Part shown: positions 4,987-27,980 of the stretch, piece by piece
Numbering within the stretch: position 1 is the stretch's first letter
Layout: every line of letters starts with the position of its first letter
Assembly (NCBI GenBank): GCA_964373435.1
Contig: CAYJUS010000002.1
Coordinates: forward strand, 1 to 32,050
Length of the DNA: 32,050 bases
Direction: 5' to 3'
Source: an uncultured Candidatus Saccharibacteria bacterium
GTDB taxonomy: Bacteria > Patescibacteriota > Minisyncoccia > JAHCSD01
Made by a program: the position numbers and the translations under genes
The notes under the pieces: generated by a model
What the model was told of the DNA's origin: nothing
The model's database searches: none
The model's input: only the letters and a program-made list of their open reading frames with translations

Positions 4987-5007
4987 GCGCGCACCTTGAT
5001 TTTCGGG

Positions 5008-5036: not shown

Positions 5037-5048
5037 TCGTTCCACCAA

Positions 5049-6266: not shown

Positions 6267-6370
6267 GGGCGTGTAAGCACAAAAGAGACTACGGGGGGTA
6301 TTATAATAAATGTGTTCTTGTAAAGCGAGGGGTTATGGTTTACTATGCGGGTAAAGAGAGTCTAGGATGT

Positions 6371-6985: not shown

Positions 6986-6991
6986 CGTTAT

Positions 6992-8143: not shown

Positions 8144-9276
8144 AAGAACGGTACCCGTTTTTCTCTGACGCTCGTGTATGCAAAGATAAATGTACCGGCG
8201 GACCATCCCTGGTAGGAAGTTCCCGCGGGGTTTCCTCCCTTCCCGTCTAGCCATTCATTAAACCCCCACTCTCTGCCAACCCCCCTACTATTTGCTCGAG
8301 CAAGCAGCTCGAGTTCTTTTTTTGCTTTTAGAAATCGTTTTGTCTTTACAAGCGCCGCAACGTAAAATCCCCCCAAAAAGGGCCAGATTCCGGCATTGAG
8401 ATAATGGTAGGGCATGCGTGACTCTGCTTTTGAAAAATAGGGGCGCCATTCTTTGTCTTTTGGACGTATGGGAGGATATATTGCTTTACAGGGATAGGGT
8501 CTCGCAATTCTTTGTTTTTCAATGTAGGAGAGTATGCGTTTCGAAATGAGCGGGGTTGCAAGTCCCGAGACAATCGCGAGGAGATTTCCTAACGTGTCGA
8601 ACCAATGTTCTTCTTCTCTTTCCCCATCGTGGTTTTTCCAAATCCAGGGGAGGTAATACCCTCGTTTTTTATCATATAAAGATAGATACGCTTTAGCTTC
8701 TCCGTTTACTATTTTTTTGATATGTGTTGCGAGACGCCGTTTTCCAAACATTGTGAGCGCCGCGTAGTAGAGCGCCTGGGTGTTGATAACCCGGCCGTAT
8801 TTATGGGGAAAGGCATCCTGCCAATCCATGGTGGGCTGCTGTACGAGTAACGTATCTTCATTGGGGTCTTGATAACGAAGCCACTGGAATGTTTTATCTA
8901 TGCTTTTTTTGTGGCGGTCGAGGAGGGCTCTGTCGTGAAAAGATTTTGCATATACCTGATGACCAATGAGATACCAGAGACTTGAATCAATGGAATTATA
9001 TGTCACGCGTGACCCCCGTTCCCTGTTGTAGTCACCCACCGCATTCGGAATTTGCCCCAAGGATGATTGATGCGTTGTAAGAAGTACAATGCTTTTGCGA
9101 AAGGCCATTTTGAAACGATGTCCAACAAGACCTGCGCCGAGCGAGGAGATCATACTGTCGCGGGCCCAGAGAGCTTCGTATCCCCCTGGAAGTCCCGATG
9201 CGTAAAATCCGGAGCGCCTTGCGCAGTGTTCGAGCACAATGATTGCGTTGCGTTTTGCTTCTTCAATAACGTTCAT
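8140..9276 (-). CDS. GDE_C-like (amylo-alpha-1,6-glucosidase-type) six-hairpin glycoside hydrolase
   Basis: ALWARDSMIS and TMDWQDAFPHKYGRVINTQALYYAAL match the GDE_C pattern xWMD...GxxVExxALwYxAL. Confidence 0.65.
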   Translation of the reverse strand: MNVIEEAKRNAIIVLEHCARRSGFYASGLPGGYEALWARDSMISSLGAGLVGHRFKMAFRKSIVLLTTHQSSLGQIPNAVGDYNRERGSRVTYNSIDSSLWYLIGHQVYAKSFHDRALLDRHKKSIDKTFQWLRYQDPNEDTLLVQQPTMDWQDAFPHKYGRVINTQALYYAALTMFGKRRLATHIKKIVNGEAKAYLSLYDKKRGYYLPWIWKNHDGEREEEHWFDTLGNLLAIVSGLATPLISKRILSYIEKQRIARPYPCKAIYPPIRPKDKEWRPYFSKAESRMPYHYLNAGIWPFLGGFYVAALVKTKRFLKAKKELELLARANSRGVGREWGFNEWLDGKGGNPAGTSYQGWSAGTFIFAYTSVREKRVPFF

Positions 9277-11486: not shown

Positions 11487-12516
11487 ATGCGTGGCGTTTT
11501 TTCGGGTCTTTCATCTCTTTTATAAGCTCTTTTAATTTTACCGAAGCGACCGCAATGCGTTTATCCGCCGCGCCGTAATACATATAAAGTGTGTCGCCAA
11601 AGACGGCGGTCCCGGTGGGGAAAACGACATTCGGTACGTGACCTCGTTTTTCCCACGGTTCTTCCGGCGAAAAAAGAGGTTCGTGGAGCCGCCCTATCAC
11701 CTTGCGGGGGTCTTCCCGGTCAAGAAGCGCGGCACAGGCGTGATATACTCGTCCTTCGTTTCTTGCTTCCACGGTGTGAAAAATGAGAAGCCATCCCTCG
11801 TCTGTTGCGATGGGGACGCATCCGCCTCCGATATTTCGCGTTTCGAACCAATGTTTGTTTTCGAGAACCACATATTCCGAAAGTTCCTTTAAGTGTTTCG
11901 TCCAAAAGGAAGCGGTAAGCTCTTTAAAATCAGAAAAGAAGATGAGTTGGATATCGGGAAGCACGCGGTGGAGAAGCGCAAAGCGACCCCGTATTTTTTC
12001 TGGGAAAAGAAAGATGTCTTTATGCCAAAGGAGCACGTCTTCTCCCATTTCTTTTTCATAATATGCAGCAAAAAAGGAATACGAATCTTTAAGACGAGAT
12101 TTCCGAAATATGCGGTCGGCTCTCCGGTATGGTATGCGGGGAGAAAGAACCCCTCGTTTTTTAAGCGTGAAAAGATCGTTCCCTGTCGCGTACGCGGTGA
12201 TCGCGTTTTTCCCGTCATGCGCAACATAAAAAAGGTAAAACGTATCTTCTATCTTCACAATCCTGGGGTCTTCAACCCCCTTGCTCTCATAGTCAAACTC
12301 CCGCTCTAGGATCGGTTTTTCCCAGCGCTCGACCACTTTCATCGGTCCCTCAAGGCGCGCATATCCGATGGATGAGCGGAATTCTTTGTCAAGCGCCCGG
12401 TAGAAAAGATGCACCGTTCTTCCTTCCTGCCAGCTTCCGGGGTTTAACACCGCGAAGTTCTCGAAATCGTGTTTTGTTGGCCTGAGTAGCACCCCTCGCT
12501 TTTTTACTATGAGCAT
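11470..12516 (-). CDS. GH130-family glycoside phosphorylase/hydrolase (DUF377)
   Basis: FAVLNPGS...LFYRA...IGYARLEGP...GVEDPRIVKIEDTFYLFYVAHDG is the GH130 signature. It overlaps the next gene by 17 nt. Confidence 0.8.
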   Translation of the reverse strand: MLIVKKRGVLLRPTKHDFENFAVLNPGSWQEGRTVHLFYRALDKEFRSSIGYARLEGPMKVVERWEKPILEREFDYESKGVEDPRIVKIEDTFYLFYVAHDGKNAITAYATGNDLFTLKKRGVLSPRIPYRRADRIFRKSRLKDSYSFFAAYYEKEMGEDVLLWHKDIFLFPEKIRGRFALLHRVLPDIQLIFFSDFKELTASFWTKHLKELSEYVVLENKHWFETRNIGGGCVPIATDEGWLLIFHTVEARNEGRVYHACAALLDREDPRKVIGRLHEPLFSPEEPWEKRGHVPNVVFPTGTAVFGDTLYMYYGAADKRIAVASVKLKELIKEMKDPKKRHAYGKNK

Positions 12517-15670: not shown

Positions 15671-15713
15671 AAGAAATCGTGTTCTTTACACATTCAATAT
15701 GAAAGGAGAGGCA

Positions 15714-16367
15714 ATGTCTCAAAGAAGGGTATGGGAACTGTTGCGCGAGACGCGCGCGATTTTGGAAAACGACCACTTTGTGTATGATTCGGGTCGGCAC
15801 GGGAGTGCATACGTCAACAAATATGCGTTTCTCCAGAATCCGGAAATCGCGTCGAAACTTTGCGAGTTTCTTGCGGATGAATTTGTGACAAAGAATGTTG
15901 AAGTTGTTGCGGGAAACGCAAGGGGAGGCATTGTTGTTGCGCAGTGGGTTGCGTATCACCTTAACTTGTTTCGCGACACGGTCTCCTCCGGTCGTAAAAA
16001 CCCTATCCTTGCGGTATTTGCCGAAGAAGAGATTCTCCCGAATGGAAAGAAAATCCGCGTCTTCCGCCATGGGTTTGGGAAGACAGTACGGGGGAAGCGC
16101 GTGCTTCTCGTTGATGACGTGTTAACAACCGGATCAAGCATCGTCCAGCTTTCGAAGGCGGTGGAGAAAAACGGCGGGTACAACGCGGGAATTGGGGTTA
16201 TTTGCAACCGAGGAAGCGTGAAAAAGATCGGGAGGAAAGATGTGGCAAGTCTTCTTTCGCTTAATCTTGATACGTATCTTCCACACCAGTGTCCCTCATG
16301 CAAGAATCATATTCCGATCAATACGGAAATCGGTTCCGGCGGGGAATTCCTTTCGGGGAGCGGCTGA
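15714..16367 (+). CDS. pyrE: Orotate phosphoribosyltransferase
   Basis: PRPP-binding loop VLLVDDVLTTGSS and adjacency to pyrF. AAAGGAG lies 6 nt before the ATG at 15714. Confidence 0.75.
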   Translation: MSQRRVWELLRETRAILENDHFVYDSGRHGSAYVNKYAFLQNPEIASKLCEFLADEFVTKNVEVVAGNARGGIVVAQWVAYHLNLFRDTVSSGRKNPILAVFAEEEILPNGKKIRVFRHGFGKTVRGKRVLLVDDVLTTGSSIVQLSKAVEKNGGYNAGIGVICNRGSVKKIGRKDVASLLSLNLDTYLPHQCPSCKNHIPINTEIGSGGEFLSGSG

Positions 16368-16370
16368 ACA

Positions 16371-17060
16371 ATGGCAAAGAAGAAAAACCGTATCATTGTG
16401 GCACTCGACGGGCTTAATACAAGAGAGGCGCTCGCCCTTGCCGAAAAGCTTTCGGGCAAGGTGTGGGGCTTTAAGGTGCACTCTCTCGTGGATAGATGCG
16501 GAACGCCTGTGATCCAAGTATTGAAACAGTACGGAAACGTGTTTGCCGACCCCAAAATTTACGATGTTCCGAGTAAGGCAGCGGAACGGATAAAACCGTA
16601 TGCGGATGCGGGTGCTGATTTCATAAGCATTCACGCCCAAGGGGGATCAAGAATGATGCAAGAGGCGGTGCGATCCGCGCGCGCAAGCGTTGTACTTGCC
16701 GTAACCGTGCTCACTTCGTACGACCAAGGGGAATGCATTGAGTTTTTCGGCCTCACCATCCTTCAAAAGTCGCTTCAGCTTGCGGTATATGCGCGAGATG
16801 CGGGATGCCGGGGCGTGGTGTGTTCCGGAGAAGAACTCCCGGTGCTGAACCGGAAAGAGAACGGCGTTCGGAATCTCCTCAAGGTGGTTCCCGCTATCCG
16901 TCCTACGTGGTACGAAGGGGAAGATACGGAACAGAGGCGAACCGTTATCCCAAAAGAGGCGATAAGAAACGGCGCAGATTTTATTGTTGTCGGGCGTCCC
17001 GTAACTTGCGCGAAAGATCCTCTCCGCGCTCTAATCAATATTGAAAAAGAGATTTCTTAA
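16371..17060 (+). CDS. pyrF: Orotidine-5'-phosphate decarboxylase
   Basis: IIVALDG, KVHS, and FADPKIYDVPS (the DxKxxD motif). Confidence 0.85.
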   Translation: MAKKKNRIIVALDGLNTREALALAEKLSGKVWGFKVHSLVDRCGTPVIQVLKQYGNVFADPKIYDVPSKAAERIKPYADAGADFISIHAQGGSRMMQEAVRSARASVVLAVTVLTSYDQGECIEFFGLTILQKSLQLAVYARDAGCRGVVCSGEELPVLNRKENGVRNLLKVVPAIRPTWYEGEDTEQRRTVIPKEAIRNGADFIVVGRPVTCAKDPLRALINIEKEIS

Positions 17061-17082
17061 AACCGCTACAGAGCGGTTTTTG
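17059..17082 (+). terminator. Rho-independent terminator after pyrF
   Basis: Hairpin aaaaccgct-acag-agcggttttt. Confidence 0.8.
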
Positions 17083-17106: not shown

Positions 17107-17135
17107 TTGACTCATTTCTTGCGACCTGCTAGTTT
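17107..17135 (+). promoter_or_regulatory. Candidate promoter TTGACT-17-(TGc)TAGTTT
   Basis: TTGACT at 17107-17112 and an extended -10 tgcTAGTTT at 17127-17135. Confidence 0.4.
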
Positions 17136-17218
17136 TAATAGATATCCGTTCTTTTACATATCAACGTAATCTCACAGGGAAAGACGCCCTTAGGAAGGTA
17201 TCAAAGGAGGTGACCGTT

Positions 17219-19459
17219 TTGGCACGTATGCGATGGACTAACAAGGAACTCTATGACCTGCGGATTATTCTTGAAAAAAGCAAGTCGTGGGCTGAAGCGA
17301 GAGCATGGATTAAGGGGCGCTTTAACGGTAGCCGAACTTGGGGATCGATACGTATGAAAATAATAAGAGCCGCAGAGTTAAAAGGATTTATGGAGCGATT
17401 CCCCCTTAAAGATCGGCTTATGGTTAATAGGGAGAATGGCGAAGCAACCCTCCATTTTATTGAGTTGGATCGTGTTCTCACCGAACTCGAGCATCGTGTT
17501 CTCGAAATCCTTAAAAAGGGACCAACCACTCTCCCCCATCTTTCGCAGGAACTTGAGCTTAGCCAGGAAAGTATCGTAAAACTGCTCGGCAACCTTCGGA
17601 ATAAAGGATATGATGCATTCGAAGACCGGCGCACCAAAGAGGTTTCCCTCTCGCGCGACGCGTTCGGTTCGTTGGATCCCCTTGAAGTCGAGCCGGTTAC
17701 CTACCGCAACTCCATTAAATTTGCGGTTATCTCGGATACCCGCATCGGAGACAAATCGAGCCAGTTTTCTCTTCTCTATGACGCCTATCAAGATTTCGAA
17801 CAGCGTAAAATAGACTTCGCGATTCATACCGGAAACCTTGTCGCGGGTGATCGTCCCAAAGCACGGCAGGAAGAACTGTTCCTTACGACCGAACACGCAC
17901 AAATGCAGTTTGCGGTGGACCACTACCCGCGTGCTTCTTTTCGAACCTACGTGATCTCGGGACCCCTCGACCTTACGTGGAAGAAAAAGAAGGGGTATAA
18001 CATTGTTCGTGACATCTGCAAAGCCCGTGAAGATCTCATTTATCGTGGCGACGATGCCGCGCTCTTCGAGACAAAAGGAAACCAGGTGTATGTTGCGCAC
18101 CCGGGGAATGACGATACGCCGTATGCCAAGAGCTACAAGCTCCAGAAAATTGCGGAAAACCACGTGGGCTATCTTCGGAGTACCGGGAAACAAGGGAAAG
18201 AAATTCCCATGCTTGCGTTCATGGGCGGTTGGCACATCGAAGACCAGCTTTTCGGGCACTACGCGCATGGTGCCTATGCCGTTCCCTCGTTTATCTCCCA
18301 GAATAAGCAGCTTGCGAATAAACACATTGCTCCTGCGATCGGATATCTCATCGTCGAGATTTTCTTCGATGACGAGGGGAATATCAGTGACGTAAAGCCC
18401 GAGTATGTAACCCTGAATAAGTATCAGATTGACCGGGATTATCTCAATATTCCTTCGCTTCAGGATCTTGAAAACGGCTGTGAAGTTTCGCGGGAAGAGC
18501 GTGAAATCCTCGAACTTATTAAGTGGGGACCATTGAGCCCGGGAGAGCTCTCGCGGCGACTTAATAAGCCCAAAAAGAAGATCCTCGAGTACGTTGAACA
18601 CCTAAAGCAATGCGGTTATGACATTATGATCCCGGAAGAAACCGATCAGGTTACTCTCTCGGTTGGCCTTAAAGAAAAATATGTTCCTACGGGAGCATAT
18701 AAGCGCTTTGAGAAGAAATTCAAATTTGGAGCTATTTCCGACACGCACCTTTGTAGTGTTCATCAGCAACCGTCGCTTTGCGACAAAGCATACGAAATTT
18801 TTGACGCCGAAGATGTTGCCTTTATCGTAAATGCGGGCGACATAACTGAAGGCGGAGGTGGCGTGGGGTATCGCGGTCACGCAAATGACGTATTCATTTG
18901 GGGTGTTGACGAACAGAAAGATTACACGGTCGCGCGTTATCCCAAGAGCAAGAAGAAGAAAAAGACGAAATGCATTCCTGGTAATCACGACCTCTGGAAT
19001 TTTTCCGCGCTTGGCTACGACATTGTTAAACATATCTGCAATGAACGGCCCGACATGGAATATCTTGGTCAGAGCGGAGGCGTCTTTGAACACGAAGGAG
19101 TCCGCTTCAAGGTTCTGCATCCTGCCGGAGGCCAGGGGTACGCCAAGAGCTACAAGCCCCAGCGGTTGATCGAAGGAGATATTTCCAAACACATCCTTGC
19201 GCTTGAAGGAGAAGACGGGGACGTAGACATTCAGCTTCTTGGAAACTGGCACCACTACCACTTCATCCATTATATGGGAACGTATAGCTTCACCCTTCCC
19301 TGTCTTAAGACCTCCGACGATTTTCACGAAACACGCGGGCTTGTTCCGTTTCTCGGAGTTGTCGTGGTTGAGGTTACGCTCGATAAAGATGGAGACATTA
19401 TCGCGATATCGCCGAAATTTATCAATTTGGCGCCGTTTGCAAAAGAACGGGATTATTAA
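17219..19459 (+). CDS. Tandem [winged-helix + calcineurin-like metallophosphoesterase] x2 protein with N-terminal Myb/SANT-like domain
   Basis: The second half carries ISDTHL, NAGDITEGG, PGNHDLW, VLHPAGG and GNWHH. The first half has the degenerate equivalents ISDTRI, TGNLVAGD, SGPLDLTW, VAHPGND and GGWHI. AAAGGAGGTGA at 17203-17213 favours the TTG at 17219; the GTG at 17210 in the ORF track sits inside the SD. Confidence 0.75.
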   Translation: MARMRWTNKELYDLRIILEKSKSWAEARAWIKGRFNGSRTWGSIRMKIIRAAELKGFMERFPLKDRLMVNRENGEATLHFIELDRVLTELEHRVLEILKKGPTTLPHLSQELELSQESIVKLLGNLRNKGYDAFEDRRTKEVSLSRDAFGSLDPLEVEPVTYRNSIKFAVISDTRIGDKSSQFSLLYDAYQDFEQRKIDFAIHTGNLVAGDRPKARQEELFLTTEHAQMQFAVDHYPRASFRTYVISGPLDLTWKKKKGYNIVRDICKAREDLIYRGDDAALFETKGNQVYVAHPGNDDTPYAKSYKLQKIAENHVGYLRSTGKQGKEIPMLAFMGGWHIEDQLFGHYAHGAYAVPSFISQNKQLANKHIAPAIGYLIVEIFFDDEGNISDVKPEYVTLNKYQIDRDYLNIPSLQDLENGCEVSREEREILELIKWGPLSPGELSRRLNKPKKKILEYVEHLKQCGYDIMIPEETDQVTLSVGLKEKYVPTGAYKRFEKKFKFGAISDTHLCSVHQQPSLCDKAYEIFDAEDVAFIVNAGDITEGGGGVGYRGHANDVFIWGVDEQKDYTVARYPKSKKKKKTKCIPGNHDLWNFSALGYDIVKHICNERPDMEYLGQSGGVFEHEGVRFKVLHPAGGQGYAKSYKPQRLIEGDISKHILALEGEDGDVDIQLLGNWHHYHFIHYMGTYSFTLPCLKTSDDFHETRGLVPFLGVVVVEVTLDKDGDIIAISPKFINLAPFAKERDY

Positions 19460-19463
19460 CGAA

Positions 19464-19496
19464 AAAAGGTCCATACCAATGGACCTTTTCTTTTTT
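19464..19496 (+). terminator. Strong rho-independent terminator
   Basis: Hairpin aaaaggtccat-accaa-tggacctttt followed by cttttttt. Confidence 0.8.
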
Positions 19497-19501
19497 GGGT
19501 A

Positions 19502-19530
19502 TTGCTTTTTCGGCAGGACTTCGATAAGAT
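19502..19530 (+). promoter_or_regulatory. Promoter TTGCTT-17-TAAGAT for the HNH/AAA+ pair
   Basis: TTGCTT at 19502-19507 and TAAGAT at 19525-19530. The TTG used as ORF start in the track is this -35 box. Confidence 0.5.
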
Positions 19531-19582
19531 AGGAAAAACCCTTCAGAACGGCACTTTGACAACTTGTTCGAAGGAGGCATCC

Positions 19583-20026
19583 TTGGCAAGAAATAGAAAA
19601 CAAAAGAGAAACAGACATCGAAGAGACGACAAGAGAATCAGGAAAGACAGAAAAAATAACACACCGTCGACGGCCACACCGGTAGAAAAGAAAGAGTTTA
19701 AGGGCGTTCATCATATCAAACCTCGTTCACGAGGAGGTCCGGATGAGCCCTCAAACCTGTACTACTGGTCTACGAACCATACCGGTAAGCACCGCGCGTG
19801 GCATACCCTTTTTGCGAATCTTCTTCCCGAAGAAGCGTGCATGTTGATCGGGCTTTGGACGAGAAAAGACGGCGGCCTTGACTTGCGGTATTTCGGCTCC
19901 CGAAGAGGAAAACCCAACAAGCGAATTATTGCCTGGAAAGTCCTCTTTACAGATCTGACGCCAAAAGAAGCCGTAGAGGTGATAACCCGGGAGTTCATAC
20001 GGAAAGAATGGTTGTCCTCTCCTTAA
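19583..20026 (+). CDS. Small HNH-motif protein with Arg/Lys-rich N-terminal tail
   Basis: HHIKPRSRGGPDEPSNLYYWSTNHTGKHRAWH fits the HNH pattern HH-x-P-x-S-x-GG...N...H...H. AAGGAGG at 19571-19577 lies 5 nt before the TTG at 19583. Confidence 0.65.
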   Translation: MARNRKQKRNRHRRDDKRIRKDRKNNTPSTATPVEKKEFKGVHHIKPRSRGGPDEPSNLYYWSTNHTGKHRAWHTLFANLLPEEACMLIGLWTRKDGGLDLRYFGSRRGKPNKRIIAWKVLFTDLTPKEAVEVITREFIRKEWLSSP

Positions 20027-20038
20027 GGAGGTGATGAC

Positions 20039-21403
20039 ATGGATGAAGAAGGGAAGAAATCACGGCTGAAAGAGATTCGCGACGACATCAGAGATTACGT
20101 CATATCGGTAAACACTCAAAAGACCGCGGCGTGGCTTTCGGAAATCGAAGCCAACCTTAACCGGTTGGTTGTCGGCCAAGAAAGAGCGGTCGAGCACATG
20201 GTCAGGCGGCTCGGGATATTTTATTCGGGCATGAAAGATCCCAAACGTCCAATTGGATCCATGATTTTTTTGGGTCCTACGGGAACCGGGAAAACGCATG
20301 CGGCAAAGAAACTCGCGGCCCAGCTTCTGGGGTACGAGGAGAACGAGGGGGATCCTGCAACCATTATTGAGTGCGCGAATCTTCGCGCGCCACACTCTAT
20401 TCAGACACTCACAGGAGCTCCTCCCAGTTACATCGGCTATGGGGATCCGCCGGTCCTTTCTCAGGCGAACATAGAACGCGCGCATCTGAAGCAGATTATC
20501 CGGAAATACTACCAAACCGATATGAAGAAGCTTACCGAGATGGTAATGCAAAATCTCGGTGGAAGTCGGGGGCAGGCACGCGCGTGGGTAGAAGGCATTA
20601 TTCGGGAACACCACCGGCCGATTTCCGTAATCGTGTTCGACGAGATCGAAAAAGCTCATCGAAACGTCATTAACCTCCTTCTCAATATTTTTGAGGAAGG
20701 GAGGACCACGCTTGCGGACGGTTCCATCACCATTTTTTCGAACACCGTCTTTATCCTTACTTCAAACGTGGGATCGCAGGAGATTAAAAAACTTCATGAC
20801 GGGGTCCTTGGCTTTCCTCTTCCGCACCAGACCAAAACGAATCTCGATGAGAATATCTACGAAGTTTCGAAGCGCGCGCTTGAAAATAACCCCAAATTCC
20901 GCCCGGAGTTTATTGGGAGAGTTCGGGGAGACATCATTGTCTTTCGCAGTCTTACGAAGGTCCACTTCATCAAGATTCTTGATTTGATGCTTGATGAAAT
21001 ACAAAACCGTCTTTCCGGGAAGAGTGCCGAGACGCCACTCGTACTTATAAGCTACTCCAAGCCTTTTAAGAACTTCCTCATTGAAAAAGGAATTGATCCC
21101 AAGTACGGGGCGCGAAACCTTCGCGCAATGGTTGAAAAATACGTGACCTATTCCATAGGACAGGCAATAGTTTCTTCCGAACTTCGCATGGGAGACAAGG
21201 TTCGTTTCGAGATACGGGGGGGAGAGCCGGTCTTGAGGCGAAAGCCCCGTCCGAAAGGCGTTAAGCTCCCGGAGTTTGAGAGAAAGTCGAACGGCAAAAG
21301 GGTGGACATTGAAGCGGTTATCCGGAAGCGATTGGGGCTTCCTCCCGACACTCCTTCTCCCACAAACAAAGCTCCGTTTGTTCCCAAGTCGGATACGTCG
21401 TAG
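20039..21403 (+). CDS. Stand-alone Clp/Hsp100 D2-type AAA+ ATPase (ClpC-like second ring only)
   Basis: VVGQERAVEHM...DPKRPIGSMIFLGPTGTGKT (Walker A), VIVFDEIEKAH (Walker B), TSNVGSQE, RPEFIGR and GARNLRAMV. AAGGAGGTGA overlaps the HNH stop codon. Confidence 0.85.
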   Translation: MDEEGKKSRLKEIRDDIRDYVISVNTQKTAAWLSEIEANLNRLVVGQERAVEHMVRRLGIFYSGMKDPKRPIGSMIFLGPTGTGKTHAAKKLAAQLLGYEENEGDPATIIECANLRAPHSIQTLTGAPPSYIGYGDPPVLSQANIERAHLKQIIRKYYQTDMKKLTEMVMQNLGGSRGQARAWVEGIIREHHRPISVIVFDEIEKAHRNVINLLLNIFEEGRTTLADGSITIFSNTVFILTSNVGSQEIKKLHDGVLGFPLPHQTKTNLDENIYEVSKRALENNPKFRPEFIGRVRGDIIVFRSLTKVHFIKILDLMLDEIQNRLSGKSAETPLVLISYSKPFKNFLIEKGIDPKYGARNLRAMVEKYVTYSIGQAIVSSELRMGDKVRFEIRGGEPVLRRKPRPKGVKLPEFERKSNGKRVDIEAVIRKRLGLPPDTPSPTNKAPFVPKSDTS

Positions 21404-21437
21404 GGTTAAGATCCATATCCGTTTTTTTATATATAAT

Positions 21438-21470
21438 AAAGGGGCGCAACCCTGCGCCTCTTTTTATTTT
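21438..21470 (+). terminator. Rho-independent terminator after the AAA+ gene
   Basis: Hairpin ggcgca-accc-tgcgcc followed by tctttttatttt. Confidence 0.7.
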
Positions 21471-21496: not shown

Positions 21497-22174
21497 GTGT
21501 CACTTATAGACCATTTGATTGAAGAACGGTATCTTAAAACACCTCGCATCATCGAGGCATTTCGCGCTATTGATCGGGCCGACTTTGTTCCCGACGATAT
21601 GAAATCGGAGGTTGAAATTAACGCCCCTCTCCCTATTGGGCACGGCCAAACCATTTCTCAACCCCTTACGGTTGCATTTATGCTTGAGCTTCTTGCTCCG
21701 ATGCCGGGCAATAACGTTTTAGATATAGGATATGGTTCTGGTTGGACAACGGCATTGTTGGCATACATCGTGAGCAAGAATCAGACAACAGGCAATAGTA
21801 AACAGGCAACGGGGGGAGATACAGGCAAAGTATTTGCGATTGAGCGGATTCCGGAGCTTGCTGATTTCGGGAGAAAAAATGTGACAAAATACAATTTTAT
21901 AGAAAAGGGGATAGTGGAGATGAAATATGGCGATGGGACAAAGGGATGGCCCGAACTTGCCTCTCGCCCTGAGCTCGTCGAAGGGTTTGACAGAATTCAT
22001 GCCGCAGCCTCGGCGCGTGAGATCCCTCGTGCATGGAAAGAACAATTGAAAATCGGGGGTAGGCTCGTAACACCGGTAGGAGGAAGCATCTGGCTATTGG
22101 TCAAAAAATCGGACCACAAATTTGAAGAGAAGGAATTCCCCGGGTTCGCGTTTGTGCCGCTTATCGAAGAGTAG
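21497..22174 (+). CDS. pcm: Protein-L-isoaspartate O-methyltransferase
   Basis: RADFVP, GHGQTISQP, VLDIGYGSGW (SAM motif I), GDGTKGW and GGRLVTPVG. A GTG start lies 7 nt after the TATAAT at 21484-21489. Confidence 0.85.
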   Translation: MSLIDHLIEERYLKTPRIIEAFRAIDRADFVPDDMKSEVEINAPLPIGHGQTISQPLTVAFMLELLAPMPGNNVLDIGYGSGWTTALLAYIVSKNQTTGNSKQATGGDTGKVFAIERIPELADFGRKNVTKYNFIEKGIVEMKYGDGTKGWPELASRPELVEGFDRIHAAASAREIPRAWKEQLKIGGRLVTPVGGSIWLLVKKSDHKFEEKEFPGFAFVPLIEE

Positions 22175-22450: not shown

Positions 22451-22921
22451 CTAGGCGGCTTGGGGCTCCTCAGATGGAGTCATGGGCCACTCTTCCTTCA
22501 GGTAGTGGAGATGGTCTGTAGGCTGGTCGCGATATGAGTAGCCTGGGATTTTCACTGGTTTCCAGGCGAATTCCAAGTTTTCCGCAATCTCTTTCTCGAT
22601 TTTACCAAGCCTCCAGATGGTTCTCGTCTTCTGAGAAGACCGATCCCTAATCTCCAGGCCCTCGAGGGTAATCCTTATCCGGTGGATATTGCTACCCACT
22701 CCGGGCTCGTTGAAATGACCGTTAAGTCCCTCGAACGTGATAACCCTCCTGACCTTTCTTTCCTCGGCTCCCATTTGGCCGTTTCTCCATGGTCCCTGGA
22801 ATACCACCGCGGATTCCATATCAGTAGGCGCCCAATCCAGAGGATCGATGACGCCTCCTGCTATCAACCGCATATATACCTCTTGTGCCAGACGCTCCGA
22901 GTTCGTGAAGTGATGTCTCAC
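22451..22921 (-). CDS. Hypothetical protein (156 aa), no recognisable motif
   Basis: AGGAGG lies 6 nt upstream of the GTG start and the gene has its own terminator. It is the only minus-strand gene between plus-strand neighbours. Confidence 0.6.
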   Translation of the reverse strand: MRHHFTNSERLAQEVYMRLIAGGVIDPLDWAPTDMESAVVFQGPWRNGQMGAEERKVRRVITFEGLNGHFNEPGVGSNIHRIRITLEGLEIRDRSSQKTRTIWRLGKIEKEIAENLEFAWKPVKIPGYSYRDQPTDHLHYLKEEWPMTPSEEPQAA

Positions 22922-23023: not shown

Positions 23024-24082
23024 ATGAATTTCATCAAAGATGCAATCTTGCGGGAAATACGCGAGCACAAGCTGGTTGTAGTGGTGCTTGTTTTGGCGAA
23101 TGTGCTGTTTCTTGCGTTATTTATGTTTGGGTTTACAATTTCGTATATACATAAGAAAGTGAATACGCCGTTTGCGAGCGAGTGCCAAGACCAGGAGTTT
23201 ATCGTGCGAGAAGGCGAGGGAGCGAAGCAAATCGCACAACATCTTGAGCGAGCGGGCCTCATATCAGACGATTTTTATTTTATGTTTTACGTGAGCATGG
23301 GGGGAACTTCAAAGAATCTTCAGGCGGGGGAGTATCGGCTTCAAAGCTGTATGAGTATTCGCGAAATTGCGGACGTCGTTACGCGCGGGAAGACGGCAAA
23401 CGAGGTAACGGTAACCTTTCCCGAGGGACTGCGGATAAATGAAATAGAAGAAAAGTTACGGATAGCAGGCATCGGGTATCAGGTATCGGGGTTTACCGTT
23501 CGAAATTTTCAAAATGACTATCATTTTTTGCAGGATGCGCCTCTCCATGCAAATCTCGAAGGATATCTTTTCCCCGACACATATTTTTTTGACAAAGATT
23601 CGAGCGCGGAAGACATAATACGAAAAATGCTTGAGAATTTTGATAGTAAAGTCACCCGGGACTTAAGAGACGAAGCTGCACAGAGCGGGAAAACCCTCTT
23701 TGAGAGCGTTATCGTCGCCTCTCTCGTTGAAAAAGAAGTGCGAAACATGGAGGATAGAAAAATTGTCTCCGGCATTATATGGGAACGGCTTCGACGGGAT
23801 ATGCCTCTCCAGATTGACGCGACCGTCACATATCTCACGGGGAAACGCACGACCGATGTTACCTATCGGGACCTCGCGATAGATTCTCCCTACAACACCT
23901 ATCGCTATACCGGTCTTCCGCCGGGACCCATTTCAAATCCCGGCCGGGAAAGTATAGAAGCCGCTATCTTTCCTCGAGAAAGTCCGTATCTTTACTACCT
24001 CTCAAAACCCGATGGGGAGACCGTGTTTTCAAAAACCTTTGAGGAACACGTACGGGCAAAAGAGAGGTATCTTTCAAAATGA
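23024..24082 (+). CDS. mltG: Endolytic murein transglycosylase MltG (YceG-like)
   Basis: N-terminal TM, LQAGEYRL, ASLVEKE, LQIDATVTY and SPYNTYRYTGLPPGPISNPG. Confidence 0.9.
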   Translation: MNFIKDAILREIREHKLVVVVLVLANVLFLALFMFGFTISYIHKKVNTPFASECQDQEFIVREGEGAKQIAQHLERAGLISDDFYFMFYVSMGGTSKNLQAGEYRLQSCMSIREIADVVTRGKTANEVTVTFPEGLRINEIEEKLRIAGIGYQVSGFTVRNFQNDYHFLQDAPLHANLEGYLFPDTYFFDKDSSAEDIIRKMLENFDSKVTRDLRDEAAQSGKTLFESVIVASLVEKEVRNMEDRKIVSGIIWERLRRDMPLQIDATVTYLTGKRTTDVTYRDLAIDSPYNTYRYTGLPPGPISNPGRESIEAAIFPRESPYLYYLSKPDGETVFSKTFEEHVRAKERYLSK

Positions 24083-25317: not shown

Positions 25318-27351
25318 CTAAAGGTCTATCTCATACACGGTGAAATCATTGAGGAGATATGCTTTGTTCTGCGCTTCGTTTATTATGGCGTCAGTCAGAT
25401 CATTGAACCTTGGACTTTGATATCGGTTGAGAACCTCGCCGTTTTTGGAAAACTTCAGGAGCGAAGAATCGTCCCGGTCAACGAGATAGACATATGTCAT
25501 ATCTTTTGATGCAATGATTTTCCCTTCGCTAAACCGAGGCGGGAGCTCCCAATTTCCGGAAACGGTGCCGTTCGAGAGTTTGAGTATTTTGTTTTCTACG
25601 CTTGTCACATAGATCGATCCGTCAATTGCAAACGAGGGAGCGGAGGAGAGGGGAATGGGTTCTTTTGTCCACTCTTCACTAAATACAAGGCGGGAATCCC
25701 GAAGTCGGTATTTAAGGATAACACCGTTTCCTCCCAAAAAATAAAGATATTCTTGATAGGAGCCAATATCTTTTACGTCGAATTCTTGGGGAGGGAGAGG
25801 GCCATCGAGACGATCATGTGATTCGGTGGCGGGATCAAAAATGCGCATTCCCGATCCCGGAACAAACGAAATGAAACGTTGAGATGAATAGAGAAAGACG
25901 CTTGGCGTGTTCTCGCGCAGTTCTCCGTCCGGAAGAAACACAAGTTTCTCCACTTCGCCATCCTTCACATACATAGTTGCCGTGGCGTCGCTATATGCAA
26001 ATAGCTTGCCGTTGTTTGAGAAGAGATATCGTGGAGCGGCGCCAAGGTTATTTGTTATTTTCCACAAAACCTTTGGTTCTTCTATGACAATGGTTCCCAG
26101 CATCGTATCCTCAAGCCCATCAATTTTTTTTGCGAGATTCGTAAGACGCGGATCGGAGGAGGAGAATGCGGAAGAGATGCTTGAGAGAAGGAGACGCGCC
26201 TCTGAAAGATTGGTACGTGCGCGGGCTTTATCCCGAAATATGAGGGCATTTTCCGCTTGAGCAACGTGTGACTCTATTTGTTGAAGAGAGTCCGTAAGTT
26301 CTTCTTTGTTTCGGGGACCGTCATGGAACGTGATCCAGAAAACCGCTCCCGTAATAAGGAGGAGGGGAATAAGAAGTGCGGTACGCGTGAGACGGGGGGC
26401 GGAAAGGATTTTCGCGGCAAAAAGGCGGACCCCCGTCTTTGTGATATGTCCATAGCGGGGAAACCGAACATATTGGGAAAGAATACTCCGAATACGGGAT
26501 GGAGATAGTATCAGGGCGGGAAGACGCGAGGAATCTATTTTTTTAAGAGAAAAGAAGATAGAACGCACCAGAAGTAGCGCGTGACTTCTTGCGCGGGGAA
26601 GGGATAGAAAGACGAGACGATCGGGCTTGAGATTTTGCGCGACGCCCGCGCGGGGAACGGATACTCGCTCCTGTTTTTTTCTTTCTGTTTTTTGGACATG
26701 GAGTAAAAGTAAAGCAAAGAGTACATCAACGGTCCGGCGGTTTTCTCGAAGGAGCTTTTCGAGTTTTTCAAGGGGGAACGTATTATATTTTATGAGAATA
26801 TGTGTAAGGTTTTCCGTTGGAAATATCTCAAGAAGCCCGGGGGTGAGAAGCACCAATACGTCGTTTTCCGCAACCGCTCCCGTAAATACATGTTCAAACG
26901 CGTTTCTTTGTTCCTTCGTTTTTTCAGTTTTTCCGATTTCGCTCACCACTCCTTCACGCAAAAGCAAGAGAAGGGGAGACCCCACCGCGCTAAAAAGAAA
27001 TACTTTTTTCGTCCAAAGTCCCAGTATGATATGGAGACAACCGAGCCACGAAGCCGTAGTTTCCCTTGCCATGTTTTTGAGGAGGATGTTTGTTCGCACC
27101 AGCGCCTCTTCAAATGCCTCTTCGTGAGCACCCGGAGACGTGCGATACCCTTCGATGAAGGCGGAGGCAAGGGAGTGAACAAGAATATCTCCGTCTTGAC
27201 TGGGGGAAGATAATTCGATTATGATAAAAAGACTTCCCTGCTTCCCTTTTCGGGTTTCGCGATGGGTGAATATGCGTGCCACGCGGCCGTCATCCCCCTC
27301 CCCCCATACCAGTTCTTCCGATTTTAGAGCGTAGAGATCCTTCTTTTTCAT
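25318..27351 (-). CDS. Membrane-anchored protein: degenerate PP2C/SpoIIE-like N-domain, one TM, C-terminal beta-propeller-like repeats
   Basis: The N-terminal block order resembles PP2C but the metal-binding Asp residues are replaced (AVGSP for GDS, LLTPGL for SDGL). TM is ALLIPLLLITGAVFWITF. The C-terminus has 6-7 strand-rich repeats (YLFSNNGKLFAY, YLYFLGGNGVILKY, and others). Confidence 0.5.
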   Translation of the reverse strand: MKKKDLYALKSEELVWGEGDDGRVARIFTHRETRKGKQGSLFIIIELSSPSQDGDILVHSLASAFIEGYRTSPGAHEEAFEEALVRTNILLKNMARETTASWLGCLHIILGLWTKKVFLFSAVGSPLLLLLREGVVSEIGKTEKTKEQRNAFEHVFTGAVAENDVLVLLTPGLLEIFPTENLTHILIKYNTFPLEKLEKLLRENRRTVDVLFALLLLHVQKTERKKQERVSVPRAGVAQNLKPDRLVFLSLPRARSHALLLVRSIFFSLKKIDSSRLPALILSPSRIRSILSQYVRFPRYGHITKTGVRLFAAKILSAPRLTRTALLIPLLLITGAVFWITFHDGPRNKEELTDSLQQIESHVAQAENALIFRDKARARTNLSEARLLLSSISSAFSSSDPRLTNLAKKIDGLEDTMLGTIVIEEPKVLWKITNNLGAAPRYLFSNNGKLFAYSDATATMYVKDGEVEKLVFLPDGELRENTPSVFLYSSQRFISFVPGSGMRIFDPATESHDRLDGPLPPQEFDVKDIGSYQEYLYFLGGNGVILKYRLRDSRLVFSEEWTKEPIPLSSAPSFAIDGSIYVTSVENKILKLSNGTVSGNWELPPRFSEGKIIASKDMTYVYLVDRDDSSLLKFSKNGEVLNRYQSPRFNDLTDAIINEAQNKAYLLNDFTVYEIDL

Positions 27352-27392: not shown

Positions 27393-27980
27393 ATGGATAA
27401 AACCTTGGAACAACTTCTTGGTTCAAAATCCCGGATTCGGGTTTTGCGGCTGTTTTTTCACCAGCCGGAGGAATTTTTTTCCTTGAAGAAGATTTCTCAA
27501 AAGACAAAAGTGAAGCCGCATCTTCTCCGGAAGGAACTTACGACTCTCAAGCAGATAGGATTTCTGAAAACAAAATACATGAAGATAGGAAAGAACCGCA
27601 AAAGGGAGCTTTTGGGCGGGAACAAGGAGTTTTCGCTCTGGAAGGAATTGCAGGGGCTTGTCCTTGCTTCTTCACATGACTTGGTTTCTGAGATTGCCTC
27701 CGACATCAAAAAACTGGGGGCGGTAAAATTGGCGGTACTTGGCGGAACATTCATAAACCAGCATAACGCCCGCGCGGACATGTTGATTGTCGTTCCGCGG
27801 CTCTCCCAAAGAAAACTCAACCATTTTATCGGAAACATCGAGGCAGAGAGCGGCACGGATATTAACTGTGTCGTTATCACTCCCGCTGAATTCATCTATC
27901 GGTATAATCTGTGCGATCGGGTGGTGCGGGACATGCTTTCCCCTAAAAACGTTCGCCTGATCAATAAACTTGACTACTAG
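27393..27980 (+). CDS. Winged-helix (ArsR-like) protein with minimal nucleotidyltransferase-like C-terminal domain (hypothetical)
   Basis: SRIRVLRLFF...FSLKKISQKTKVKPHLLRKELTTLKQIGFL, then VLGGTF...ARADMLIVV, which resembles a degenerate GSxxxG...DxD NTase fold. Confidence 0.45.
   Translation: MDKTLEQLLGSKSRIRVLRLFFHQPEEFFSLKKISQKTKVKPHLLRKELTTLKQIGFLKTKYMKIGKNRKRELLGGNKEFSLWKELQGLVLASSHDLVSEIASDIKKLGAVKLAVLGGTFINQHNARADMLIVVPRLSQRKLNHFIGNIEAESGTDINCVVITPAEFIYRYNLCDRVVRDMLSPKNVRLINKLDY

What the first reader, a model, noticed from the sequence alone, without database searches (positions are those of the whole stretch)
17107..21470. Self-contained cassette: double wHTH-metallophosphoesterase protein + basic HNH protein + D2-only Clp ATPase, inserted between pyrEF and pcm
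Seen in the sequence: a 4.3-kb block bounded by clean terminators (17059-17082 and 21438-21470) sits between unrelated housekeeping genes. It has two transcription units. The first encodes a ~747-aa protein with three putative DNA-binding modules and two phosphoesterase folds. The second starts after a strong terminator and a new promoter, and encodes an HNH-motif protein followed 12 nt later by a Clp-type AAA+ gene whose SD overlaps the HNH stop codon. Established knowledge: pairing nucleases or phosphoesterases with an ATPase is the common logic of many defence and conflict systems (for example HNH + ATPase in Septu, Mre11/SbcD-type phosphoesterase + ATPase). I know of no described system that combines a Clp D2 unfoldase, an HNH protein and a duplicated wHTH-phosphoesterase. 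Inference: this may be a nucleic-acid-sensing or -cleaving module, or a ClpP-linked regulatory proteolysis module.
Basis: partly seen in the sequence, partly recalled or inferred. Interest (0 to 1): 0.85.

Follow-up and report, generated by a model that had tools for sequence, protein, structure and literature searches.

The report
Conserved Patescibacteria nuclease-like/HNH/mini-ClpC gene trio
The three genes are real and do travel together in many ultra-small (Patescibacteria/CPR) bacteria, but they form a fixed chromosomal housekeeping-type neighbourhood of unknown function rather than an inserted anti-phage cassette.

Summary
The sequence observation holds. There are three ORFs: 17210-19459, 19583-20026 and 20039-21403. 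Hairpin terminators lie at 17061-17082, 19464-19489 and 21438-21463.

- **Gene 1** is an internally duplicated HTH-metallophosphoesterase. One active site is degenerate and one is intact. The fold is closest to PolD-DP1/Mre11 nucleases.
- **Gene 2** is a small basic protein with a marginal, phage-type HNH motif and a family-specific helical C-domain.
- **Gene 3** is a ClpC-like D2-only AAA+ protein. It keeps the pore loop and the [LIV]GF ClpP-docking tripeptide.

The "inserted cassette / defence" reading is not supported. The block has the same composition as its flanks and matches no PADLOC system. I found no relative of gene 1 in viral or plasmid collections. In most related lineages sampled, the block sits in the same place, upstream of pcm and/or mltG. 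Compared with the closest fetched relatives, pyrEF is the indel.

The "functional module" reading is partly supported. Searches anchored on each of the three proteins converge on the same neighbourhood. The trio also occurs in reversed order (Clp-small-MPE) in another context. Each component can nevertheless be absent.

Best guess (about 0.4): a DNA-bound nuclease-like pair coupled to ClpP-dependent unfolding. I found no description of this trio.

The parts
17061..17082 (+). Hairpin plus T-run terminator after pyrF; upstream boundary of the block
   Evidence: Sequence read (aaaccgctacagagcggttttt). Not listed by the scan.
17210..19459 (+). Gene 1: tandem HTH-metallophosphoesterase (749 aa ORF; likelier start 17219 TTG or 17228 ATG)
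   Evidence: The family has 483 clusters at E<=1e-30.
17231..17395 (+). N-terminal Myb/SANT-like helical module (aa ~8-62)
   Evidence: Confident helices 11-61 in the AF2 model. Similar W-rich N-termini, judged by eye, in P0140, P0168, P0171 and P0136. No Pfam hit.
17477..17611 (+). wHTH 1 (aa 90-134)
   Evidence: Pfam TrmB 3.6e-6 and MarR_2 2.3e-4. PADLOC CasR/Csa3 wHTH, 5e-8.
17711..18412 (+). MPE1: degenerate phosphoesterase half (aa ~168-401). Motifs are DTR (17729-17749), GN (17825-17842), GPLD (17957-17974), HP and GGWH.
   Evidence: Internal repeat E 9e-35. D176, T177, R178, G208, N209, G251 and D254 are invariant in 8 homologs; residues 252-253 vary P/Q and L/T. Positions.
18491..18619 (+). 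wHTH 2 (aa 428-470)
   Evidence: Pfam HTH_5 8.6e-5, PF0610-like_N 4.1e-5 and HTH_24 4.5e-4.
18713..19426 (+). MPE2: intact phosphoesterase half (aa ~502-739). Motifs are DTH (18734-18751), GD (18833-18847), GNHD (18980-18991), HP (19115-19129) and GNWH (19241-19261).
   Evidence: Pfam Metallophos 3.5e-11. PHROG 'DNA repair exonuclease' 4.4e-12. Foldseek top hits PolD DP1 (5e-9) then Mre11. Invariant ligand residues.
19464..19489 (+). Terminator hairpin between gene 1 and gene 2
   Evidence: 11-bp stem and T-run.
19550..19562 (+). Conserved leader motif GGCACTTTGACAA between the -10-like box (TAAGAT) and the SD of gene 2
   Evidence: Aligned block in 8 orthologous leaders. Probably a generic 5'-leader feature.
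19583..20026 (+). Gene 2: small basic HNH-like protein (147 aa from TTG 19583; ORF opens at 19502). HH 19709-19714, N 19754-19756, KHRAWH 19787-19804, C-terminal helical domain ending REFIRKEWL 19988-20014.
20039..21403 (+). Gene 3: D2-only ClpC-like AAA+ unfoldase (454 aa). Walker A 20273-20296, pore loop SYIGY 20426-20440, family-specific insertion about aa 139-190, Walker B 20627-20653, LGF loop 20807-20815, Arg finger 20903-20920, sensor-2 GARNLR 21107-21124.
21438..21463 (+). Terminator hairpin after gene 3
   Evidence: 11-bp stem with 6 G-C pairs.
21497..22174 (+). pcm (protein-L-isoaspartate O-methyltransferase): conserved downstream neighbour, not part of the trio proper
   Evidence: Called PCMT by Pfam in relatives. 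The window ORF matches them at 52-69% identity.
23024..24082 (+). mltG/yceG: conserved downstream neighbour
   Evidence: Pfam YceG 2.4e-85. Synteny.

Best explanation
This is a lineage-conserved chromosomal gene trio of Patescibacteria (CPR), not an insertion.

Gene 1 is a single-chain pseudo-dimer: a Myb-like module, then [wHTH + dead metallophosphoesterase], then [wHTH + live metallophosphoesterase]. Its fold is of the Mre11/SbcD/PolD-DP1 nuclease type. I infer that the HTH modules hold it on DNA and that its one intact di-metal site cuts phosphodiester bonds.

Gene 2 is a small basic partner carrying a phage-type HNH motif. It could be a second nicking site or only a structural or adaptor subunit.

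Gene 3 is a minimal ClpC-type unfoldase with only the D2 ring. Its conserved pore loop and LGF loop imply that it threads polypeptides into ClpP.

Proposed working, all inferred: the MPE/HNH pair acts on DNA ends, nicks or protein-bound DNA. The Clp ring, together with ClpP, either removes proteins from that substrate or controls the amount of the nuclease pair by regulated degradation. The conserved pcm neighbour fits a setting concerned with damaged proteins.

Shown: the domain anatomy, motif states, internal duplication, conserved co-localisation and absence from the mobile-element collections searched. Inferred: DNA binding, nuclease activity, ClpP docking and any physical contact between the three proteins.
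For: Anatomy:
- Searches show the duplication; MPE1 motifs are invariably degenerate and MPE2 motifs canonical.
- Nuclease-type affinity: Foldseek top hits are PolD DP1 (5e-9) then Mre11, PHROG 'DNA repair exonuclease' scores 4e-12, and NCBIfam PolD small subunit scores 1e-3.
- Clp: the best PDB match is B. subtilis ClpC D2, with LGF aligned to the ClpC VGF. A [LIVM]G[FY] tripeptide is present in all 51 D2-only relatives aligned.

Linkage (table):
- MPE>small>Clp in the window, L001/2, L009, L010/11 and L018.
- Clp>small>MPE between glnA and glmS in L033/34 and L041.
- MPE>Clp in L014-16 and L017.
- MPE>small in L023-27.
- A second, remotely homologous MPE type fills the same slot (hhalign 82%, E 1e-5).

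Not mobile: composition is flat, PADLOC finds no system, there is no MPE relative in IMG/VR or plasmids, and the position next to pcm/mltG/rplJL is fixed.
Against: - No direct evidence for nuclease activity, DNA binding, ClpP docking or protein-protein contact.
- In the window the three genes lie in two transcription units split by a strong terminator.
- Each component is dispensable at the locus: MPE>pcm alone in L003-8; Clp alone next to yebC-ruvC in L019/20; the small protein alone upstream of the hrcA operon in L022.
- MPE type and Clp subtype occur in all four combinations, which argues against tight co-evolution of an interface.
- Much of the co-localisation could be inherited synteny.
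- The HNH assignment is below Pfam's cut-off, and the AF2 model does not resolve that region.
- MPE folds also give phosphatases and nucleotide phosphodiesterases; LpxH and purple acid phosphatase score only about 100-fold worse.
- No ClpP gene lies in the 426 kb fetched.
Confidence: 0.4

Rival explanations
1. There is no joint mechanism. The genes are neighbours by inherited synteny in small, rarely rearranged genomes. Clp-D2 is simply the reduced housekeeping ClpC of these bacteria and works with ClpP in general proteostasis alongside pcm. The small protein is its adaptor or a stress-associated factor. Gene 1 acts independently, for example as a nuclease that feeds nucleotide salvage.
For: - Clp>pcm>mltG order is kept from the window to Terrybacteria, next to secE-nusG-rplK or rplJL.
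- D2-only Clp also stands alone in housekeeping contexts, rpoBC-yebC-ruvC-Clp, and in Acidobacteria.
- A small-protein homolog lies just upstream of a perfect CIRCE followed by hrcA-grpE-hsp20-dnaK-dnaJ.
- Gene 1 is repeatedly flanked by nucleotide-metabolism genes: IMPDH, phosphoribosyltransferases and pyrEF.
- A terminator separates gene 1 from genes 2-3.
- MPE and Clp subtypes combine incongruently.
Against: - The trio recurs in reversed order in a different context without pcm or mltG (L033/34, L041). This is hard to explain by inherited synteny.
- The small protein sits next to the MPE even where Clp is absent (L024-27), so it is not simply a Clp adaptor.
- Two remotely related MPE types occupy the same slot beside small/Clp.
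Confidence: 0.3
2. Gene 1 is a ligand-responsive transcription factor. Its HTH modules bind operators and the phosphoesterase halves sense or hydrolyse a nucleotide signal, one half being reduced to a binding site. This would resemble Nudix-type NrtR or PRTase-fold PurR. It would control the adjacent small-Clp (and pcm) stress genes or the neighbouring nucleotide genes.
For: - Two TF-type wHTH matches and one Myb-like module.
- A conserved dead enzyme half is typical of sensor domains.
- Gene 1 lies directly upstream of the operon it would control, and next to IMPDH, PRTase and pyrEF.
- A related leader motif lies downstream of the -10 region of both gene 1 and gene 2. MPE-gene upstream regions score above controls (Mann-Whitney p = 0.008).
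- JGI names one single-module member an 'Lrp family transcriptional regulator'.
Against: - MPE2 keeps a full catalytic motif set, and its best matches are nucleases.
- The leader motif also occurs upstream of unrelated genes, so it is probably generic.
- No palindromic operator was found.
- Single-module relatives occur in Bacilli and Odinarchaeia, whose gene contexts I did not examine.
Confidence: 0.15
3. It is an anti-phage or anti-plasmid defence (conflict) system: nuclease effectors (MPE, HNH) licensed by an AAA+ ATPase.
For: - Nuclease plus ATPase logic resembles Septu, Dodola and SbcCD-like systems.
- The Clp gives partial hits to PADLOC DolB (3e-15) and PDC-M37B (9e-17).
- The HNH domain of gene 2 is of a type found on viral contigs.
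- Subtypes combine in a mix-and-match way.
Against: - PADLOC hits cover only generic AAA+ segments, and no partner gene (DolA, PDC-M37A, PtuA/B) is matched.
- Chromosomal position next to pcm, mltG and ribosomal genes recurs in most lineages sampled.
- No compositional anomaly.
- No defence, integrase or transposase genes among the neighbouring window ORFs scanned.
- No MPE relative in IMG/VR or plasmids.
- The family is large and widely kept.
Confidence: 0.07

Closest known systems
ClpC / ClpA (class I Hsp100 partners of ClpP)
   Same: The D2 module is best matched by B. subtilis ClpC (1.8e-52). Walker A/B, the Tyr pore loop, Arg finger, sensor-2 and D2-small domain are present. LGF aligns with the ClpC VGF ClpP loop.
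   Different: There is no N domain, no D1 ring and no M domain, so the known adaptor sites for MecA, McsB and ClpS are missing. A 40-60 aa insertion between pore loop and Walker B is specific to the Patescibacteria type. The C-terminal tail is basic.
Skd3 / human CLPB (D2-only Hsp100)
   Same: Single D2-type AAA+ ring architecture. PDB matches 7ttr/8zrs at 1e-21 to 1e-24.
   Different: From my own knowledge, Skd3 has ankyrin repeats, lacks a ClpP loop and acts as a stand-alone disaggregase. Here there are no ankyrin repeats and an LGF loop is present.
Mre11/SbcD and PolD DP1 (nuclease-type metallophosphoesterases)
   Same: MPE2 has DxH, GD, GNHD, H and GxH motifs. The closest folds and profiles are DP1, Mre11 and a phage 'DNA repair exonuclease'. 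By established knowledge Mre11 works as a dimer; here two MPE halves lie in one chain.
   Different: There is no Rad50/SbcC or DP2 partner and no OB or capping domain was detected. One half is catalytically degenerate. HTH modules are fused in. The neighbouring ATPase is a Clp unfoldase, not an SMC-like ATPase.
Pseudomonas putida MPE in the Lhr-MPE-ligase-Exo repair operon (PMC7826289)
   Same: A bacterial binuclear MPE that is a Mn-dependent DNA endonuclease, encoded in a conserved operon with other DNA-repair genes (abstract seen).
   Different: The subfamily is different, with no HTH fusion or duplication. Its operon partners are not a Clp unfoldase or an HNH protein. Homology beyond the superfamily was not tested.
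Dodola (DolA + ClpB-like DolB) and Septu (PtuA ATPase + PtuB HNH) defence systems
   Same: Both pair an ATPase with a putative nuclease. DolB gives a partial hit (3e-15, aa 26-96).
   Different: No DolA, PtuA or PtuB match at E<=0.1. The context is conserved housekeeping genes rather than defence islands.
Phage HNH endonucleases / IscB HNH domain
   Same: An HH-x-P-x-S-R-G-G...N...H-x-x-W-H motif. Weak matches to Pfam HNH, PHROG HNH and IscB HNH. The same N-domain occurs on 8 IMG/VR contigs.
   Different: The score is below Pfam's cut-off and there are no zinc-binding Cys pairs. The protein carries an extra conserved helical C-domain (REFIRKEWL) that I did not find in the viral copies.

Membership tests
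ClpC/ClpA-type ClpP-partner unfoldase | Two AAA+ rings (D1 + D2) with an N-terminal domain | tested here: not met
   Only AAA_2 plus ClpB_D2-small were found. Matches to ClpB, ClpA and ClpC models cover the D2 part only.
ClpC/ClpA-type ClpP-partner unfoldase | [LIV]G[FL] ClpP-docking tripeptide in D2 | tested here: met
   LGF (aa 257-259) aligns with the VGF of B. subtilis ClpC. A [LIVM]G[FY] tripeptide is present in all 51 D2-only relatives aligned. The requirement of LGF for ClpP assembly is stated in PMC10149685.
ClpC/ClpA-type ClpP-partner unfoldase | Intact ATPase and translocation motifs (Walker A/B, aromatic pore loop, Arg finger, sensor 2) | tested here: met
   GPTGTGKT, VFDEIEK, SYIGY, PEFIGR and GARNLR were located.
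ClpC/ClpA-type ClpP-partner unfoldase | Physical and functional coupling to ClpP | not testable with these tools
   No ClpP gene in the window or the fetched loci. TM7x, a cultured Patescibacterium, has clpP.
HNH endonuclease (PF01844) | Score at or above Pfam's gathering cut-off | tested here: not met
   21.2 bits against a cut-off of 21.4. The L018 ortholog scores 21.3.
HNH endonuclease (PF01844) | Catalytic His, Asn and metal-binding His of the beta-beta-alpha-Me motif | tested here: inconclusive
   HH(43-44), N58 and H70/H74 are conserved in homologs that include this region. The AF2 model is below pLDDT 50 there. Foldseek gave no hit.
Calcineurin-like metallophosphoesterase superfamily | DxH / GD / GNH[DE] / H / GxH metal-ligand motifs | tested here: met
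   MPE2 has DTH, GD, GNHD, H637 and GNWH681, invariant in 8 homologs. MPE1 has DTR, GN and G[PQ][LT]D, that is, degenerate.
Mre11-Rad50 / SbcCD | Adjacent SMC-like Rad50/SbcC ATPase partner | tested here: not met
   No such gene in the window or in related loci. The neighbours are the small protein, Clp, pcm and mltG.
PolD small subunit DP1 | Equivalog-level match and OB fold plus DP2 partner | tested here: not met
   NCBIfam NF003118 scores 17.7 bits against a cut-off of 445. Structural similarity is limited to the MPE core (TM 0.23-0.26 on the query).
Septu (PtuA/PtuB) | PtuA ATPase plus PtuB HNH detected by PADLOC models | tested here: not met
   No PtuA or PtuB hit at E<=0.1 for any of the three proteins.
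Dodola (DolA/DolB) | DolA partner and a full-length DolB match | tested here: not met
   The DolB hit covers aa 26-96 only (3e-15). There is no DolA hit.
Mobile or defence island | Variable genomic context, compositional anomaly, or presence on phages or plasmids | tested here: not met
   The position recurs next to pcm and/or mltG in most lineages sampled. GC is 0.47-0.50, like the flanks. No MPE relative in IMG/VR or plasmids, and only one generic hit in phages.

The most novel reading that the evidence does not exclude
The trio is a machine widespread in Patescibacteria that couples nucleic-acid cleavage with protein unfolding and degradation. A single-chain Mre11-like pseudo-dimer plus an HNH subunit would process DNA that carries bound or cross-linked protein, while a minimal ClpC ring feeds that protein to ClpP. 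This would be a bacterial counterpart of Mre11 plus unfoldase/protease repair of DNA-protein adducts. It would also define a new, adaptor-less way of targeting a Clp unfoldase.
Probability: 0.15. Interest if true: 0.8.

Novelty: new variant of a known kind. Interest (0 to 1): 0.5.

Why it matters
Patescibacteria make up a large share of bacterial diversity, yet most of their conserved genes lack a function. Three things follow from this locus.

- It defines a large uncharacterised HTH-metallophosphoesterase family (at least 483 clusters at 50% identity). The family has single-module and tandem pseudo-dimeric forms.
- It shows a minimal ClpC-like unfoldase that keeps the ClpP loop but has lost every known adaptor-binding domain. 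That raises the question of how its substrates are chosen.
- It shows a recurrent genomic link between these two families and a small HNH-fold protein.

If the link is functional, it would be a new way of coupling nucleic-acid processing to regulated proteolysis. If it is not, the locus still corrects a tempting "novel defence system" call and shows that nuclease-plus-ATPase logic alone is not enough for such a call.

Tried and rejected
- **PADLOC, Pfam, NCBIfam and PHROGs on the three proteins.** No named system matched; only generic AAA+ and HTH hits appeared in PADLOC.
- **Word-indexed homolog search for gene 1.** It returned only 8 proteins, which wrongly suggested a rare family. The exhaustive HMMER scan corrected this.
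- **CIRCE search in the window.** None was found, so I could not show HrcA control of the small-Clp unit.
- **RNA-thermometer idea for the small-gene leader (CUUU pairing with the SD).** Single-sequence folds were inconsistent and RNAalifold gave no consensus. Dropped.
- **Leader motif as a specific shared operator.** There is modest enrichment upstream of MPE genes (p = 0.008), but the motif also precedes unrelated genes. I treat it as a generic feature.
- **Structure of the small protein.** The HNH region was not resolved and there were no fold matches.
- **Profile search of the small protein against PDB.** Only a non-significant IscB HNH match (E 0.49).
- **First metagenome scan with alignment A3.** It failed for lack of a conserved stretch and was repeated with A5.
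- **ClpP search in fetched loci.** Nothing was found.
- **Literature searches.** No description of this trio was found. ClpI (PMC10149685) is double-ringed and therefore different.

Full report

Yes. Three same-strand ORFs occupy 17210-19459 (749 aa), 19502-20026 and 20039-21403 (454 aa). The likeliest start of the second ORF is TTG 19583, after a GGAGG, which gives 147 aa.

G+C-rich hairpins with T-runs lie at 17061-17082, 19464-19489 and 21438-21463. The stop codon of gene 2 is followed directly by GGAGG, and the ATG of gene 3 comes 12 nt after the stop.

The flanking genes are:
- IMPDH (minus strand), pyrE and pyrF upstream;
- pcm, mltG/yceG, rplJ and rplL downstream.

The consensus scan listed neither.

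**2. What are the three proteins?**

*Gene 1.* Pfam finds two winged-helix modules (aa 90-134 and 431-470) and one Metallophos domain (aa 504-641, 3.5e-11).

The two halves of the protein, each wHTH plus phosphoesterase, are 28% identical over 327 aa (E 9e-35).

In an alignment of eight homologs the second half keeps invariant metal-ligand motifs: DTH, GD, GNHD, H637 and GNWH681. The first half carries conserved substitutions: DTR, GN and G[PQ][LT]D. The chain thus has one dead and one live site.

An AlphaFold model (mean pLDDT 71) matches the PolD DP1 proofreading exonuclease best (5e-9), then Mre11. LpxH and purple acid phosphatase score about 100-fold worse. PHROGs gives "DNA repair exonuclease" (4.4e-12).

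The N-terminal 60 residues form confident helices. Similar W-rich N-termini, judged by eye, recur as a Myb/SANT-like module in many family members.

*Gene 2.* It has a Lys/Arg-rich tail, then HH-I-x-P-x-S-R-G-G ... N ... K-H-x-A-W-H, then a helical domain ending REFIRKEWL.

HNH is called only marginally:
- Pfam 21.2 bits against a cut-off of 21.4;
- PHROGs 1e-3;
- NCBIfam IscB HNH 1.5e-3.

The same N-terminal domain (residues 43-96) occurs on eight IMG/VR viral contigs. The C-terminal domain did not match there.

The AF2 model resolves only the helical C-domain and has no fold match in the PDB.

*Gene 3.* It consists of AAA_2 plus ClpB_D2-small and nothing else.

The best solved relative is the D2 ring of B. 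subtilis ClpC (1.8e-52). In that alignment "gvLGFplp" pairs with ClpC "kyVGFnvq", which I recognise as the ClpP-docking tripeptide.

A [LIVM]G[FY] tripeptide is present in all 51 D2-only relatives aligned. [quoted passage not shown]

Walker A/B, the pore loop SYIGY, the Arg finger and sensor 2 are intact.

A 40-60 aa insertion between pore loop and Walker B is specific to the Patescibacteria-type proteins. The ~400-aa Acidobacteria-type proteins lack it.

**3. Is it an inserted cassette?**

No.
- GC content (0.47-0.50) matches the flanks.
- Relatives with 64-70% identical gene 1 (L001, L002, L009) have CNNM, IMPDH(-), MPE, small, Clp, pcm, mltG (and rplJ-rplL in L001) in the same order but without pyrEF. 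Among these relatives, pyrEF is the indel and the block is part of the backbone.
- Candidatus Terrybacteria (GCA_001822935) has PRTase, a 672-aa protein, Clp-D2, pcm, mltG, secE, nusG and rplK.
- A MAG labelled Saccharibacteria has PRTase, IMPDH, MPE and Clp-D2.
- I found no relative of gene 1 in IMG/VR or PLSDB plasmids. The phage collection gave only one generic hit.
- PADLOC finds no system. The Clp hits to DolB and PDC-M37B cover only generic AAA+ segments, and no partner protein is matched.

**4. Are the three genes a unit?**

Partly. Three independent anchors lead to the same neighbourhood.

*Gene 1 homologs*:
- close relatives carry the trio;
- one 39% relative has MPE then Clp, with no small gene;
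- three 37-38% relatives have MPE then pcm, with neither the small gene nor Clp.

*Clp homologs*:
- relatives at 63% and 40% identity have small, Clp, pcm (with mltG nearby);
- Terrybacteria have big protein, Clp, pcm, mltG;
- 35% relatives stand alone after rpoBC-yebC-ruvC;
- Acidobacteria copies lie in unrelated contexts.

*Small-protein homologs from metagenomes*:
- the MPE lies immediately upstream in L023-L027, followed by mltG in L024, L025 and L027, with no Clp;
- in L033/L034 and L041 the order is reversed (Clp, small, MPE), between glnA and glmS, with no pcm or mltG.

That reversed trio in a new context is the strongest sign of selection for linkage.

The 672-aa Terrybacteria-type protein has no Pfam hit. 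It aligns to the gene 1 family by profile-profile comparison (82% probability, E 1e-5, 279 columns) and has the same plan of a degenerate half, a wHTH and a live half. Its motif I reads C-L-H instead of D-x-H.

Against a tight complex:
- MPE type and Clp subtype occur in all four combinations. For example, L010 has the Terry-type MPE with a 63%-identical Clp, while L009 and L018 have a 64-71%-identical MPE with a 36-37%-identical Clp.
- In the window a strong terminator separates gene 1 from genes 2-3.

**5. How big is the gene 1 family?**

The word-indexed search returned 8 proteins. An exhaustive HMMER scan of 1.84 billion representatives found 483 clusters at E<=1e-30 and 1685 at E<=1e-10.

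Of the top 148 hits, 61 are tandem (>=600 aa) and 84 are single-module (<500 aa). In the four single-module sequences I read, the plan is an N-terminal helical region, a wHTH and an MPE. By motif search, most single-module hits carry canonical DTH and GNHD.

Named members come from Terrybacteria and Parcubacteria. Single-module forms also come from Odinarchaeia and Bacilli. All are annotated only as metallophosphoesterase.

**6. Mechanism**

*Shown:* the anatomy, motif states, conserved linkage and non-mobile context.

*Inferred, best guess (0.4):* gene 1 is a DNA-bound single-chain pseudo-dimer with one nuclease-type active site. Gene 2 is its small HNH-fold partner. Gene 3 is a minimal ClpC that threads proteins into ClpP. 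Those proteins would be either ones bound to the DNA substrate or the nuclease pair itself, as a form of regulated turnover.

*Rivals:*
- inherited synteny of independent housekeeping genes, with Clp-pcm as general proteostasis (0.3). A small-protein homolog beside a perfect CIRCE-hrcA-dnaK operon fits this;
- gene 1 as a ligand-sensing transcription factor (0.15);
- a defence system (0.07).

**7. Comparison with known systems, and novelty**

The Clp works like ClpC or ClpA, but it fails their architectural definition because it has no N domain, D1 ring or M domain. In architecture it resembles Skd3, yet unlike Skd3 (my own knowledge) it has a ClpP loop.

Gene 1 is a member of the metallophosphoesterase superfamily. 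It is not SbcD/Mre11, because there is no Rad50 or SbcC partner. It is not DP1, because it scores far below the equivalog cut-off.

Four literature searches found no description of the trio.

I rate it a new variant of known kinds, with interest 0.5. It is a well-conserved, uncharacterised Patescibacteria module worth testing, and not the novel defence system originally suspected.

Noticed in passing
window 15699-17060 (pyrE, pyrF) versus L001, L002, L009: The close relatives go straight from IMPDH(-) to the MPE gene. Among the fetched relatives, pyrE-pyrF are present only in the window, so pyrEF rather than the 'cassette' is the indel at this locus.
   Followed up: partly
window 19550-19562; also window ~17147-17159, and L009, L011, L012, L018, L022, L014, L027: A conserved 13-nt leader block, G[CA][AT]C[TC]TT[GT]ACAA, lies 20-40 nt upstream of the start codons of the small/Clp genes. 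A related block lies upstream of several MPE genes. MPE upstream regions score above 174 controls (p = 0.008), but IMPDH, PRTase and CitMHS genes carry it too, so it is probably a generic 5'-leader feature of these genomes. No consensus RNA structure was found.
   Followed up: partly
L022 96-443 and 536-562: A 62%-identical homolog of the small HNH-like protein sits alone just upstream of a perfect CIRCE element (TTAGCACTC-N9-GAGTGCTAA) and hrcA-grpE-hsp20-dnaK-dnaJ. This is a single observation linking the small protein to heat-shock genes.
   Followed up: partly
L014 5850-7868, L010 1-1299, L025, L027, L033, L041 (alignment A6): A second, Pfam-invisible type of tandem phosphoesterase occupies the same slot. 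Its live half has an invariant Cys-x-His in place of the first Asp-x-His metal-ligand motif. The L033 and L041 versions add an N-terminal C2H2-like zinc-finger sequence.
   Followed up: partly
L009, L010, L014, L018 versus window: All four combinations of MPE type (window or Terry) and Clp subtype (window-like or Terry-like) occur at the same locus. This suggests in-situ gene displacement or sorting of paralogs. It remains unresolved.
   Followed up: no
L019 6336-8272, L020 6210-8287: In other Patescibacteria the D2-only Clp follows rpoB-rpoC-yebC-ruvC. By established knowledge, that is where many bacteria have ruvA-ruvB. No MPE, small protein or pcm lies nearby.
   Followed up: no
window 20453-20608 (Clp aa ~139-190) and 21236-21400 (aa ~400-454): The Patescibacteria-type Clp has a 40-60 aa insertion between pore loop and Walker B. 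It also has a basic, proline-rich C-terminal tail. Either could replace the missing adaptor- or substrate-binding domains.
   Followed up: partly
P0203 (Odinarchaeia), P0236 (Bacilli), P0168, P0171, P0176, P0184: Single-module relatives of gene 1 (300-440 aa) exist outside Patescibacteria; the four whose sequences I read combine a wHTH with the phosphoesterase. They include an Asgard archaeon and Bacilli. All are annotated only as metallophosphoesterase, or in one case as an 'Lrp family regulator'.
   Followed up: partly
L003 4593-9483: A gene-poor stretch of about 3.4 kb (4593-8030) is followed by a LAGLIDADG_2 ORF at 8869-9483. This looks like an rRNA operon with an intron-encoded homing endonuclease, a trait I know as typical of CPR bacteria.
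   Followed up: no
window 22451-22921 (-), 25318-27351 (-), 27393-27980 (+), 1225-1671 (+), 2585-3391 (+): Several sizeable ORFs have no Pfam match. They include a 156-aa ORF on the opposite strand between pcm and mltG and a 677-aa ORF after rplL. L001 has a 654-aa no-Pfam gene at the same place.
   Followed up: no
window 6242-12516: A carbohydrate cluster: PIG-L deacetylase, two GT4 glycosyltransferases (one with a weak 'GT4-conflict' hit), a GDE_C/invertase-like hydrolase and a GH130 phosphorylase. It is unrelated to the finding.
   Followed up: no
L033 3300-3698, L041 3255-3674: In the reversed trio, a conserved 132-139 aa ORF with no Pfam or PHROG match overlaps the start of the Clp gene. 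It may be a fourth component in that lineage.
   Followed up: no
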